NCBI GenBank assembly: GCA_016933055.1 | Contig: JAFGBS010000004.1 | Location: 330,001-362,000 of the forward strand | DNA length: 32,000 bases | Source of the DNA: Promethearchaeota archaeon | GTDB lineage: Archaea > Asgardarchaeota > Lokiarchaeia > Sigyniarchaeales > Promethearchaeaceae | Direction of reading: 5' to 3' | Shown here: piece by piece, positions 1-2,658 of the stretch | Layout of the letters: every line of letters starts with the position of its first letter | Position numbering within the stretch: the first letter of the stretch is position 1 | Notes under the pieces: model-generated | The model's database searches: none | The model's input: the letters and a program-made list of their open reading frames with translations, nothing else | Told to the model about the DNA's origin: nothing | Made by a program: the position numbers and the translations under genes

Positions 1-34
1 TACCAAACTTAACAATACTAGATGATCAAAAACT

Positions 35-208
35 ATGTCTTACGCTCAAGAAGTATGCAATGGATGTGGAAAACAGCTCGCTCCATATGAAAACGCGGTA
101 TCTTTTCCTTGTCCCAATTGCGGAGATATCATGATTTATCGATGCGAACGCTGTCGAGCATTTGCTCGTCCTTATAAGTGTCCCAAATGCACTTTTGAGG
201 CTCCATAA
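35..208 (+). CDS. Small zinc-ribbon protein, DUF1610/HVO_2753 family (57 aa; missing from the ORF track)
   Basis: My translation from ATG35 to TAA206-208 is MSYAQEVCNGCGKQLAPYENAVSFPCPNCGDIMIYRCERCRAFARPYKCPKCTFEAP. It has four CxxC pairs and the F-x-CPNCG...RCxxCR...YxCPxC pattern of this family, which typically precedes ef1b in archaea. Confidence 0.9.
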   Translation: MSYAQEVCNGCGKQLAPYENAVSFPCPNCGDIMIYRCERCRAFARPYKCPKCTFEAP

Positions 209-233
209 ACACTCCCAACCGAGGAACATAAAC

Positions 234-749
234 ATGACAACTAACTTAACTTTTGCACGTAGCCCTGTTAGAGAAATGATGAAGCGAAACGGTGCTCAAC
301 TAGTTGCACAAGATGCAGTAACATTGTTGATCGACCATATTGAACAAGCTGCTAAACAACTAACAAAACAAGCACTTGTATACGCCCAGCATGCAAAGCG
401 AAAAAAAATTACACGGGATGATATTCTCTTAGCTACAAAATATACAATAATTAAACACAAAATGAAAAAAGAACACTATGTGATAGCGGTAGTAAAAGTT
501 CTTCCTGATGATGTGTATGAGAATGCTCACTTGGAGAAATTAGTTGGAGAGCTCAAAAATGTGCTAACACCGTTAAATACTGTTGTCGAAAAGTTTACCA
601 TAGTCCCCATTGCATTTGGGTTGCAAGCTCTTCGTGTTCAAATACGAATTCCAGAAGAAACTGAGGGTGGAACTCAACCTGCGGAAGATGCTATGGAATC
701 CTTAGGATGGGTTCAGCGAGTAGAAGTGGAAATGGTCACACGTTTATAA
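234..749 (+). CDS. Archaeal histone (about 234-446) in frame with translation elongation factor aEF-1beta (462-749); apparent 171-aa fusion
   Basis: GAGG SD at 221-224, ATG at 234. Histone fold FARSPVREMMKRNGAQLVAQDA...HAKRKKITRDDILLA is followed by linker TIIKHK and EF-1beta (VKVLPDD...PIAFGLQAL...QRVEVEMVTRL). There is no in-frame stop between them. The track start at 162 overlaps the zinc-ribbon gene and is probably wrong. Confidence 0.85.
   Translation: MTTNLTFARSPVREMMKRNGAQLVAQDAVTLLIDHIEQAAKQLTKQALVYAQHAKRKKITRDDILLATKYTIIKHKMKKEHYVIAVVKVLPDDVYENAHLEKLVGELKNVLTPLNTVVEKFTIVPIAFGLQALRVQIRIPEETEGGTQPAEDAMESLGWVQRVEVEMVTRL
462..749 (+). CDS. ef1b: aEF-1beta domain, or a separate gene if ATG462 is used
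   Basis: Has the PIAFGL motif, N-terminal VKVLP and C-terminal VQRVEV strand; 95 aa, the size of a standalone aEF-1beta. Confidence 0.85.
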   Translation: MKKEHYVIAVVKVLPDDVYENAHLEKLVGELKNVLTPLNTVVEKFTIVPIAFGLQALRVQIRIPEETEGGTQPAEDAMESLGWVQRVEVEMVTRL

Positions 750-762
750 TTTCCTGTATTTT

Positions 763-2658
763 TTACCTATGAAACTCTTTCTCGAGATATGACCAACTGA
801 AAAATAACATGGTAGGTCGACCATGAGCGCAATGATGGGGATTTTCGCACAGTGATAAGGTTATGAGTAATTTTTTTGCAAATTCCGGATCTGAAATCAT
901 ATCTCCTCCTCTAATGCTCTCATGACACGCAATATATTTAAGGATCTTCTCAACCGATTGACTAAAAGATGTTTGTTTTCCCATTTCAATAATTTCTAAG
1001 CAAATGTCTGTAAGAATAGCTGTATCTTGTACTTCTTTCAAGATGGTAGGAATTGTATGTAAAGTAAAGGTGGTACCTCCTAGATGGTTCACTTCAAATC
1101 CAAACTTTGCAACCTCAGAAATCGTATCGAGCAAGTATTCTTTCATATTTATCGGAACTTCAATAGTAAAGGGAATTATTAAACGCTGTCTATGCATTCC
1201 TCCTTTTAAATACGCCTTCATCTCTTTTTCATAATTGATCCTTTCATCTGCTGCGTGCATATCTAAGATATAAAATCCTTCCTCCCCTTCAAAGACAAAA
1301 TATACATTCTTTAATTGTCCTGATTCGCTTATTAACCGCATCTTCGGAAAAGATTTTGTTTGTATCCATTCATTGCGTAGAAAATAATGGGATTGTTTGG
1401 AAATAAGATTTGGAGCAAAGGTTTGCAACGGAAGAGCTTTAGTTTTATGAGGAGTAGCTATCTGAGCTTCAGAGGACACCCTCTCTTGGGATTGTGACGT
1501 AAATTTAGAACTTGATTGAACTAATGGGCTTTGAGCAGATGTAGATAGATTATTCTTTAGATGATTTTCCGATGGAGATTTTTCTTCAATCCATGTTTCA
1601 ATTGTTTTACTGGAGGAAGAAATAGATTGGTCTAGTTGACTGGTAATTGTAGACTGTCCAAATTTTTGATTGACCACTGAGCGCGTTACCTCGCTTAATG
1701 CACTTAATATCGTTTCTTCTTCTTCGAATCTGACAATTTTCTTGGTGGGATGAATATTGAAATCTACCTTGGAGGGATCTATGGTCAAAAATAGGACATA
1801 AAATGGATGTTTATGGATCATTATATAGCTTTTATAAGCAAATTTCATCGCTTCATGGACGGTGGGAGAAATAACGTACCGGCCATTGATAAACACCGTA
1901 GTATTATGAGATGTGGATTGTGCTAAGGTGGGATCCCCAATATACCCTTCGATGGTGAATAAATTGTGCGATTCTCTAAAAAATACGCTATTTTTTGCGA
2001 AATCTTTACCATAGACATCAAAAATGGCATTAACCGGATCTGATGAGCTAGGAGAAGATAAAATTGGAGTAGAATCCTGCATTAATTTGAAATTAATCTC
2101 CGGATACCCAAGAATATATCGAGATACAATATCTGTGATGTGCCCCATTTCAACACGATCGGATTTCAGGAATTTATATCGTACAGGAGTATTAAAGAAT
2201 AAATCTCTGACCTTGATATTGGTTCCTAAGGCTGCTGCAGTTTGTGTACATGATTTCACGACTCCGCCCACCAATTCAATTTTAATCCCATGTGAGCTCG
2301 AGCGGGTTTTGGTAATCAATTCCGTTTTTGATATTGAACAAATTGAGTAGAGAGCTTCTCCTCTAAATCCAAGTGATTTTAATGTAACTAACTCATCTGC
2401 TGATCGTATTTTATTAGAAGTATGAGGTAAAAAGGCTATTTCAACATCTTCGGGATGAATACCAACTCCATCGTCAATGACCTGGATAAGAGATTTTCCA
2501 AAATTCTGAATATTTATAGTTATTTTCTTTGCTCCCGCATCAATGCTATTTTCAATCAATTCTTTTACTACCGATGCAGGGCGTTCAATAACTTCCCCGG
2601 CAGCAATTTTCTGGTAATCTTGAATCTCCTTAATTCTCCGAAGAGGTGAAGACACCAT
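763..2658 (-). CDS. mutL: DNA mismatch repair protein MutL with C-terminal endonuclease domain
   Basis: Has IAAGEVIERPASVVKELIENSIDAGA, DDGVGI and SLGFRGEAL (GHKL ATPase), plus endonuclease motifs DMHAADERINYE, ACH and CAHGRP. Confidence 0.97.
   Translation of the reverse strand: MVSSPLRRIKEIQDYQKIAAGEVIERPASVVKELIENSIDAGAKKITINIQNFGKSLIQVIDDGVGIHPEDVEIAFLPHTSNKIRSADELVTLKSLGFRGEALYSICSISKTELITKTRSSSHGIKIELVGGVVKSCTQTAAALGTNIKVRDLFFNTPVRYKFLKSDRVEMGHITDIVSRYILGYPEINFKLMQDSTPILSSPSSSDPVNAIFDVYGKDFAKNSVFFRESHNLFTIEGYIGDPTLAQSTSHNTTVFINGRYVISPTVHEAMKFAYKSYIMIHKHPFYVLFLTIDPSKVDFNIHPTKKIVRFEEEETILSALSEVTRSVVNQKFGQSTITSQLDQSISSSSKTIETWIEEKSPSENHLKNNLSTSAQSPLVQSSSKFTSQSQERVSSEAQIATPHKTKALPLQTFAPNLISKQSHYFLRNEWIQTKSFPKMRLISESGQLKNVYFVFEGEEGFYILDMHAADERINYEKEMKAYLKGGMHRQRLIIPFTIEVPINMKEYLLDTISEVAKFGFEVNHLGGTTFTLHTIPTILKEVQDTAILTDICLEIIEMGKQTSFSQSVEKILKYIACHESIRGGDMISDPEFAKKLLITLSLCENPHHCAHGRPTMLFFSWSYLEKEFHR

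What the first reader, a model, noticed from the sequence alone, without database searches (positions are those of the whole stretch)
234..749. In-frame histone::elongation factor 1-beta fusion
Seen: the histone frame has no stop and runs through ...LLATKY-TIIKHK-MKKEH... into a complete aEF-1beta. An SD precedes ATG234, but none is visible before ATG462. I know of no histone-EF1B fusion. If real, it would physically link chromatin to the EF-1alpha nucleotide-exchange factor, fitting coupled transcription-translation in archaea. Caveat, also seen: the linker (444-461) is A-rich and looks intergenic. Out-of-frame TAA triplets at 448-450 and 452-454 mean one indel in a nearby A-run would restore two genes, so an assembly error or a recent private mutation is a real possibility.
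Basis: partly seen in the sequence, partly recalled or inferred. Interest (0 to 1): 0.72.

Follow-up and report, generated by a model that had tools for sequence, protein, structure and literature searches.

The report
Conserved histone–elongation factor 1-beta fusion
A small group of Lokiarchaeia-type (Asgard) archaea makes its only copy of the translation factor aEF-1beta as a single protein joined to a DNA-packaging histone. The join is real and kept by selection, but what it does is untested.

Summary
Window 234-749 (+) is one open 171-codon frame: a histone fold (PF00808, residues 10-67), an 11-residue basic linker, and a full EF1_GNE domain (PF00736, residues 85-171).

It is not an assembly error or a private mutation.
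- Nine further full-length fused proteins (64-77% identity, 99-100% coverage) come from independent JGI, ENA, NCBI and Logan assemblies.
- Nine fused DNA sequences (eight full-length, one cut by its contig end at codon 88) keep the frame without indels over the codons each covers. Synonymous sites are saturated and both domains are under purifying selection.
- Four of the nine lack the internal Met: codon 77 is ATA once and TAT three times.
- None has a Shine-Dalgarno motif before codon 77. Eight of nine have GAGG before the first ATG.

The fused gene is the only EF1_GNE gene in this 91%-complete genome. It keeps the usual position of aEF-1beta, after the aS21 zinc-finger gene and convergent with MutL. 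Close unfused relatives have aS21 directly followed by EF-1beta.

Both halves form one clade with the same inner topology, so the fusion arose once. Only one 50%-identity cluster among 1.84 billion representatives has this architecture.

A homodimer through the histone handshake is predicted, and most DNA-contact basic residues are kept. Dimerisation is the likeliest role and chromatin tethering remains open.

NCBI labels an orthologue simply "elongation factor 1-beta".

The parts
35..208 (+). Upstream gene: 57-aa HVO_2753-like / aS21 four-cysteine zinc-finger protein. It is the conserved upstream neighbour of aEF-1beta.
   Evidence: PF07754, E 9.2e-20. The same gene lies directly upstream of the fused gene in all orthologous loci (C-terminal KCPKCTFEGP then stop) and directly upstream of unfused EF-1beta in relatives.
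221..224 (+). Shine-Dalgarno-like GAGG, 9 nt before the start codon of the fused gene.
   Evidence: Present within 20 nt of the start in 8 of 9 fused orthologues.
234..749 (+). Fused ORF of 171 codons plus TAA: histone fold, linker, aEF-1beta.
   Evidence: It is the only PF00736 match in the genome.
234..443 (+). Histone-fold half (residues 1-70), of the Lokiarchaeial 'SPxR..MK ... HAKRKKIT..D..LA.KY' type.
   Evidence: PF00808 on residues 9-67. Gapless alignment to HPhA, HMfA and HMfB. 52-64% identical to free-standing histones of relatives. It is the predicted homodimer interface, residues 6-68.
444..476 (+). Linker (residues 71-81, T-I-I-K-H-K-M-K-K-E-H): fixed length, basic, with H75 invariant.
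   Evidence: No indel in any fused sequence. Many synonymous and some non-synonymous changes. Coil in the AF2 model.
462..464 (+). Internal ATG (codon 77). It is not conserved and no SD precedes it. It may be incidental or a relic of the EF-1beta N-terminus.
   Evidence: ATG in 5 of 9 sequences, ATA in 1, TAT in 3. No GAGG-like motif in the preceding 20 nt in 0 of 9.
477..746 (+). aEF-1beta guanine-nucleotide-exchange domain (residues 82-171).
   Evidence: PF00736 covers profile positions 2-88 of 88. Aligns end to end with PDB 1gh8 and 2yy3 aEF-1beta. 26 near-invariant residues are shared with free-standing aEF-1beta. AF2 pLDDT is about 80 with a beta-alpha-beta-beta-alpha-beta order.
763..2658 (-). 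Convergent MutL-like gene (631 aa). It serves as a conserved synteny anchor.
   Evidence: ORF. HATPase_c, DNA_mis_repair and MutL_C genes sit in the same position in every orthologous locus and after unfused EF-1beta.

Best explanation
This is a genuine, selectively maintained gene fusion found in a narrow Lokiarchaeia-type (Promethearchaeota) lineage. A paralogue of the lineage's ordinary nucleosomal histone came to lie between the aS21 zinc-finger gene and aEF-1beta and became joined in frame to the 5' end of aEF-1beta. The gene is translated from ATG234, which has the conserved GAGG, as one 171-residue polypeptide. That polypeptide is the cell's only aEF-1beta, so it must act as the nucleotide-exchange factor for aEF-1alpha. 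The histone fold cannot fold alone, so it pairs in the usual handshake. The partner is a second copy or possibly a free histone paralogue. The result is a dimer carrying two (or one) exchange domains on short basic tethers. This is an N-terminal oligomerisation module on a C-terminal GNE domain, the layout that eukaryotic eEF1B subunits reach with other domains. Because the L2 RKK motif, the R-D clamp and most basic surface residues are kept, the dimer may also sit on DNA. That last step is inferred, not shown. Shown: the open frame, its conservation, single origin, purifying selection on both halves, sole copy, and synteny. Inferred: translation as one chain, exchange activity, and dimerisation (model only). 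Open: DNA binding.
For: - Two domains in one frame.
- Nine other full-length fused proteins at 64-77% identity from JGI, ENA, NCBI and Logan. One of them is identical in three separate assemblies.
- Gapless codon alignment across the junction with many synonymous changes. Codon 77 is ATA or TAT in 4 of 9 sequences.
- pS is 0.46-0.90 (saturated) against pN 0.07-0.20 in the histone half and 0.07-0.27 in the EF-1beta half. Omega is 0.04-0.30 where it can be computed.
- GAGG lies before the first ATG in 8 of 9 sequences and before codon 77 in none. Unfused relatives do carry GAGG, GGAGG or GTGA before their EF-1beta ATG.
- There is only one PF00736 match in the 91%-complete genome.
- The aS21 / fusion / convergent MutL synteny is the same as for unfused EF-1beta.
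- The EF-1beta halves form one clade (86/82) and the histone halves form one clade (93/90), with matching inner topology.
- EF-1beta near-invariant residues are all kept.
- Homodimer model: ipSAE 0.53 against a best control of 0.01. That mark was reached by 20 of 30 proteins solved as pairs and 1 of 23 solved as single chains. Runs agree in at least 84% of contacts and partner pLDDT is at least 81. The interface is residues 6-68, the histone handshake only. This pass rests on likeness to solved histone dimers.
- 7 of 9 basic positions conserved in free Loki histones are kept, and 3 more are gained.
Against: - There is no protein-level or RNA-level evidence that a single chain is made.
- The dimer is a model, and it resembles solved histone dimers, so the pass may come from memory.
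- Two basic positions conserved in free histones are relaxed in the fused clade: position 14 (R/K becomes mostly E) and position 26 (R becomes Q in this window's protein). The basic N-terminal MAKKK tail is reduced to MTTNLT here. DNA affinity may therefore be weakened.
- A 100-residue domain directly after helix alpha3 may hinder stacking into hypernucleosomes (inference).
- The raw-read check of the junction could only be done with contigs, probably from the source sample.
Confidence: 0.8

Rival explanations
1. Chromatin-tethered exchange factor. The histone half still binds and bends DNA, alone or as a heterodimer or tetramer with free histones. The cell's aEF-1beta is thereby concentrated on the nucleoid, linking EF-1alpha recharging to the site of coupled transcription-translation. 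It could also act as a cap on hypernucleosomes.
For: - L2 'HAKRKK(I/V)T' and the R56-D63 clamp are invariant, and H53 (the HMfB H49 position in the four-helix bundle) is invariant.
- 7 of 9 conserved basic positions are kept and new basic residues appear at positions 9, 45 and 55.
- The linker is basic (K/R74, H75, K76).
- The net charge of the histone half is +6 to +10, against mostly +5 to +12 for free paralogues (one free paralogue is -1).
- The histone half is at least as constrained as the EF-1beta half. That is more than a bare dimerisation handle would seem to need.
Against: - The L1 arginine, invariant in free Loki histones (position 26), is Q here and variable in the clade.
- Position 14 is mostly acidic and the N-terminal basic tail is lost.
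- No DNA-binding test was possible.
- Four free histone genes remain in the genome for packaging.
Confidence: 0.3
2. Two products from one ORF. In the orthologues that keep ATG at codon 77 (this window included), a free aEF-1beta is also made. The route would be an internal promoter with leaderless initiation, since the A/T-rich KYT-coding stretch 433-444 resembles a TATA box about 20-25 nt upstream of ATG462, or proteolysis in the linker. The fusion would then be a minor or regulatory form.
For: - ATG is kept at codon 77 in 5 of 9 sequences.
- The stretch before ATG462 is A/T-rich.
- Leaderless mRNAs are common in archaea (general knowledge).
- The linker is predicted to be coil and is lysine-rich.
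Against: - Codon 77 is ATA or TAT in 4 of 9 orthologues, with no other conserved start codon nearby.
- No SD-like motif lies before codon 77 in any sequence.
- The A/T-rich stretch is explained by the conserved K-Y-T codons, which also end free histones, and it is less A/T-rich in L045, L037 and L058.
- The linker length is fixed and H75 is invariant, which suggests a constrained peptide rather than a spacer.
Confidence: 0.1
3. Artefact or recent private lesion. An assembly or sequencing indel, or a very recent stop-codon loss, merged two normal genes in this one assembly.
For: Out-of-frame TAA triplets lie at 448-450 and 452-454, and short A-runs are nearby. None of the 40 relatives among GTDB species representatives shows a fused match, and a genome-contig scan found none.
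Against: - Nine further fused proteins from independent assemblies and assemblers have 63-80% nucleotide identity, no indels and no homopolymer at the junction in several.
- An independent Logan assembly gives the same sequence at depth 20.
- An indel in the 8-A run at 401-408 would destroy the conserved helix alpha3 reading, which all orthologues keep in this frame.
Confidence: 0.01

Closest known systems
Archaeal elongation factor 1-beta (aEF-1beta; PF00736; solved as PDB 1gh8 and 2yy3/7csl)
   Same: It has a full-length GNE domain with the family's near-invariant residues. It holds the same genomic position, after the aS21 zinc-finger gene. It is the single copy in the genome.
   Different: Known archaeal aEF-1beta proteins are stand-alone and about 90-100 aa. 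This one carries a 70-residue histone fold and an 11-residue basic linker at its N-terminus and has lost its own ribosome-binding site.
Archaeal nucleosomal histones (HMfA/B, HPhA; the free 'FAWSP...HAKRKKIT...LAIKY' histones of Lokiarchaeia)
   Same: The histone fold is of the same length, aligns without gaps, and is 52-64% identical to free histones of relatives. The L2 RKK motif, the R-D clamp and the bundle histidine are kept. A handshake homodimer is predicted.
   Different: The stop codon after '...KY-x' is missing and the chain runs on into aEF-1beta. W9 is replaced by R/K in all fused forms, L15 is M and L36 is I. The L1 arginine and the basic N-tail are relaxed.
Eukaryotic eEF1B-alpha and eEF1B-delta (own knowledge)
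   Same: The layout is the same: a C-terminal GNE domain preceded by an N-terminal module that mediates assembly into oligomers. It works alike in topology.
   Different: The eukaryotic N-terminal modules are a GST-C-like eEF1B-gamma-binding domain or a leucine zipper, not a histone fold. No homology of the N-terminal parts was found, and Pfam finds only histone-type families in residues 1-76.
Prokaryotic histone-fold proteins with extra domains or tails (Schwab et al. 2024, PMC11390915; survey PMC13260811)
   Same: It is a histone fold fused to another functional module in a prokaryote.
   Different: Text searches of these surveys and of the 2026 Asgard chromatin preprint find no elongation-factor partner. 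Here the partner is a core translation factor and the fused gene is the only copy of that factor.

Membership tests
aEF-1beta / EF1_GNE (PF00736) | Full-length match to the GNE domain profile above the curated cut-off | tested here: met
   51.1 bits (fused protein) and 53.4 bits (residues 77-171) against a cut-off of 20.8, covering profile positions 2-88 of 88. The genome search with the HMM also scores over the cut-off.
aEF-1beta / EF1_GNE (PF00736) | Family-conserved residues and the beta-alpha-beta-beta-alpha-beta fold | tested here: met
   26 positions are at least 90% conserved across fused and free forms, including the GGTQP.EDA and QRVE..V.R motifs. End-to-end alignment to 1gh8. The AF2 model has pLDDT about 80 with the expected element order.
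aEF-1beta / EF1_GNE (PF00736) | Nucleotide-exchange activity on aEF-1alpha | not testable with these tools
   Inferred only, from conservation, purifying selection and the fact that it is the sole copy.
aEF-1beta / EF1_GNE (PF00736) | Stand-alone protein of about 90-100 aa, as in all described archaeal members | tested here: not met
   171-180 aa with an N-terminal histone fold.
Archaeal nucleosomal histone (PF00808) | Histone fold (alpha1-L1-alpha2-L2-alpha3) recognised above the cut-off | tested here: met
   43.6 bits against a cut-off of 21.4 on residues 9-67. phmmer hits to HPhA, HMfA and HMfB at E 6e-8 to 2e-5, gapless.
Archaeal nucleosomal histone (PF00808) | Handshake dimer | tested here: met
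   Model only. ipSAE 0.53 against a best control of 0.01; the mark was reached by 20 of 30 solved pairs and 1 of 23 single chains. Contact agreement is at least 84% and pLDDT at least 81. The interface is residues 6-68. The pass may reflect likeness to solved histone dimers.
Archaeal nucleosomal histone (PF00808) | DNA-contact residues (L1 Arg, L2 Lys-Thr/Lys, R-D clamp, N-terminal Arg) | tested here: inconclusive
   The L2 RKK motif, the R56-D63 clamp and R13 are invariant. The L1 basic residue (position 26) is Q in this protein and position 14 is E. Overall, 7 of 9 conserved basic positions are kept.
Archaeal nucleosomal histone (PF00808) | DNA wrapping / hypernucleosome formation | not testable with these tools
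   No DNA-protein modelling or assay was available. The C-terminal 100-residue domain may interfere (inference).
Eukaryote-type eEF1B-alpha/delta | N-terminal GST-C-like or leucine-zipper module homologous to the eukaryotic ones | tested here: not met
   Residues 1-76 hit only histone-fold families in Pfam. The resemblance is one of layout only.

The most novel reading that the evidence does not exclude
The fusion places the cell's entire pool of the aEF-1alpha recharging factor on histone-bound DNA, either as a homodimer or as a heterodimer capping chromatin fibres built from the free histones. It would be a physical bridge between archaeal chromatin and the translation elongation cycle in a relative of the eukaryotic ancestor.
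Probability: 0.25. Interest if true: 0.85.

Novelty: new variant of a known kind. Interest (0 to 1): 0.62.

Why it matters
Histones and aEF-1beta are both core, well-understood proteins. A selectively maintained fusion of the two, as the sole copy of the translation factor, was not found in three recent surveys of prokaryotic and Asgard histones or in full-text searches. Public records label an orthologue simply "elongation factor 1-beta".

If the histone half only dimerises, this is a natural case of an archaeal exchange factor acquiring an N-terminal oligomerisation module, as eukaryotic eEF1B subunits did. It occurs in the archaeal group closest to eukaryotes. If the histone half also binds DNA, it would directly tether a translation factor to chromatin.

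Either way the protein is small (19.6 kDa). It is easy to express and to test for oligomeric state, DNA binding and exchange activity.

Tried and rejected
- **RNA evidence:** no RNA holder is listed for window 1-1000. The two metatranscriptome runs from the same study laid nothing. This says nothing about expression.
- **Run X2** (hot-spring metagenome) holds near-identical pieces at 85-331 and 468-706, but none spans the junction.
- **Species representatives:** a search of 40 relatives found no fused match, and a scan of genome contigs found none. The same-genus genome G001 (76% complete) has no EF1_GNE match at all, so it is uninformative.
- **Unfused intermediate** (aS21, then histone with a stop, then EF-1beta): none was found in L002, L047, L049, L050-L052 or L053-L055. 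The 242-nt spacer in L050-L052 is full of stops in all three forward frames and shows no visible histone motif.
- **Apparent two-domain hits** P0128 and P0089 in the representative search are histones with unrelated tails, not fusions.
- **P0011** is a fused-type gene that goes out of frame inside the EF-1beta half on a 601-nt contig. It is probably an error or a pseudogene.
- **P0003's 27 extra N-terminal residues** are a gene-caller start inside the aS21 gene in another frame. The TTG162 ORF in the window is the same artefact.
- **AF2 monomer:** the histone half has pLDDT below 50, as expected for an obligate dimer with a 10-row alignment. It was used only for the EF-1beta half and the linker.
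- **Linker pS values above 1** are small-sample artefacts and were ignored.
- **Literature:** searches for a described histone/EF-1beta fusion gave nothing.

Full report
**Observation.** Window 234-749 on the + strand is one open frame of 171 codons ending in TAA.
- Pfam places a histone fold (PF00808, 41-44 bits, cut-off 21.4) on residues 9-67. It places a complete EF-1 guanine-nucleotide-exchange domain (PF00736, 51-53 bits, cut-off 20.8, profile positions 2-88 of 88) on residues 85-171.
GAGG lies 9 nt before ATG234. No such motif lies before ATG462. Out-of-frame TAA triplets lie at 448-450 and 452-454.
- Upstream, at 35-208, is a 57-aa HVO_2753-like / aS21 zinc-finger gene (PF07754, E 9e-20).
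- Downstream, at 763-2658 and convergent, is a MutL-like gene.

**Is it an artefact?** No.
- A search of 5.8 billion proteins returned nine other full-length fused proteins of 171-198 aa. They are 64-77% identical over 99-100% of the query, and all carry both Pfam domains. They come from JGI, ENA, NCBI and Logan assemblies.
- One of them (P0004) is encoded identically on contigs from three different assemblies. Another cluster has nine members. A scan of JGI metagenome contigs added two more loci.
- I fetched eight orthologous DNA loci. The coding sequences align codon for codon without a gap over 170 codons (88 in L059, which its contig end cuts) and are 63-80% identical at nucleotide level.
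- Across the junction almost every codon shows synonymous variation. Several orthologues have no homopolymer there.
In four lineages the EF-1beta half therefore has no start codon of its own.
- GAGG precedes the first ATG in 8 of 9 sequences. No GAGG, GGAG, AGGA, GGTG or GTGA lies in the 20 nt before codon 77 in any of them. Unfused relatives do carry GAGG, GGAGG or GTGA before their EF-1beta start.
- Nei-Gojobori counts give saturated synonymous differences (pS 0.46-0.90). Non-synonymous differences are low: pN 0.07-0.20 in the histone half and 0.07-0.27 in the EF-1beta half. Omega is 0.04-0.30 where it can be computed.
- The linker changes more (pN 0.1-0.6) but never changes in length. H75 is invariant and positions 74 and 76 stay basic.
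- A Logan contig of run X1 (depth 20) reproduces window 1-1000 exactly, but it is probably the source sample. Only contigs were available, not raw reads.

**Context and origin.**
- The fused gene is the only EF1_GNE match in this 91%-complete genome, by protein query and by Pfam HMM. Four free histone genes lie elsewhere.
- Every fused locus has the same neighbours: aS21 immediately upstream (20-30 nt spacer) and a convergent MutL downstream.
- The closest unfused aEF-1beta genes sit in the same place, with aS21 directly followed by EF-1beta. These are G002 in the same family, P0012, P0015 and P0016, and the possible sister group P0018/P0019. None has a histone in between, and no unfused aS21/histone/EF-1beta intermediate was seen.
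- In trees, the EF-1beta halves of the fused proteins form one clade (UFboot 86 / SH-aLRT 82). The histone halves also form one clade (93/90), inside the Lokiarchaeial FAWSP...HAKRKKIT...LAIKY histones.
- The two halves show the same subgroups: P0002+P0003, then P0005/P0006 with P0007/P0008/P0010. P0001+P0004 pair in the histone tree and are unresolved in the EF-1beta tree. This fits one fusion event followed by co-descent.
- Free histones of this type end at "...KY-x-stop". Free EF-1beta proteins start "M-G-D-K-K-E-K-K-H-Y" and align to fused residues 73-82. The join therefore looks like the loss of a stop codon that stood next to the EF-1beta start. This is an inference.
- The architecture is rare. 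A profile search of 1.84 billion 50%-identity representatives found exactly one cluster with both domains. No other GTDB species representative matched.
- NCBI names members of one orthologue cluster "elongation factor 1-beta [Promethearchaeota archaeon]".

**What the parts look like.**
- The EF-1beta half keeps all 26 positions that are at least 90% conserved between fused and free proteins. It aligns end to end with solved aEF-1beta structures 1gh8 and 2yy3. It is modelled with pLDDT about 80.
- The histone half aligns without gaps to HPhA, HMfA and HMfB.
- Compared with 18 distinct free histones of relatives, it keeps 7 of the 9 positions that are basic in at least 80% of them: R13, K17, R56, K57, K58, R61 and K69. 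It relaxes two: position 14 is mostly E, and position 26 is Q in this protein. It gains basic residues at positions 9, 45 and 55. It carries fixed differences W9 to R/K, L15 to M and L36 to I.
- The lysine-rich N-terminal tail MAKKK of free histones is MTTNLT here.
- A two-copy model supports a homodimer. ipSAE is 0.53 against a best control of 0.01. That mark was reached by 20 of 30 proteins solved as pairs and 1 of 23 solved as single chains. Runs agree in at least 84% of contacts and partner pLDDT is at least 81.
- The confident interface is confined to residues 6-68, the histone handshake, and the EF-1beta domains are not part of it. This pass rests on likeness to solved histone dimers.

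**Mechanism.** The best-supported reading is a single polypeptide that is the cell's aEF-1alpha exchange factor and is dimerised through its histone fold.
- It is an N-terminal assembly module on a C-terminal GNE domain, the layout of eukaryotic eEF1B-alpha and eEF1B-delta (own knowledge), reached here with a different module.
- Sulfolobus aEF-1beta has been reported to be a dimer (own recollection, not checked here). That would make a dimerising handle functionally plausible.
- Whether the histone half still binds DNA is open. The intact L2 motif, the R-D clamp, the bundle histidine and the basic linker argue for it. The relaxed L1 and N-tail positions and the bulky C-terminal domain argue for weakened or altered binding.
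- Production of a separate EF-1beta by internal initiation or cleavage cannot be excluded for the ATG-bearing subgroup. It cannot apply to the four lineages without that ATG.

**Novelty.** Full-text searches found no description of a histone/EF-1beta fusion. They covered two recent surveys of prokaryotic and archaeal histones (PMC11390915, PMC13260811) and a 2026 preprint on Asgard chromatin. The sequences are public but labelled only as EF-1beta. I class it as a new variant of known kinds: a new domain architecture built from two familiar domains, confined to a narrow lineage.

Noticed in passing
L037:4001-4543, L041:3001-3543, L045:854-1396, L058:479-1021: One subgroup of the fused proteins (180 aa) ends with a conserved extra tail, P-M-Q-P-K-D-I-(S/A)-Q-F, directly after the catalytic-end ...V(T/S)R motif. 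The 171-aa subgroup, including the window, ends ...VTRL. The function of the tail is unknown.
   Followed up: partly
P0017: A 374-aa protein in the representative library matches the histone part of the profile in four separate stretches. It may be a four-fold histone-repeat protein.
   Followed up: no
P0104: A 684-aa protein carries an EF1_GNE-like match at its extreme C-terminus (residues 596-682). This is another long N-terminal extension on a GNE domain, of unknown origin.
   Followed up: no
L050:2259-2500 (also L051, L052): In one unfused relative, the spacer between aS21 and EF-1beta is 242 nt instead of the usual 20-50 nt. It is full of stops in all three forward frames and shows no histone remnant by eye.
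   Followed up: partly
window 401-408: An in-frame run of eight A's encodes part of the invariant K-R-K-K motif of histone loop L2. It is a homopolymer prone to sequencing slips, but all orthologues confirm the frame after it.
   Followed up: yes
window 763-2658 (-): A full-length MutL-type gene (HATPase_c, DNA_mis_repair, MutL_C) lies convergent to aEF-1beta. This arrangement is conserved across fused and unfused relatives.
   Followed up: partly
P0011 (601-nt ENA contig): A fused-type gene reads normally through the histone half, the linker and the first EF-1beta strand, then continues in a different, repetitive reading. It is probably a frameshift error or a pseudogene on a very short contig.
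   Followed up: no
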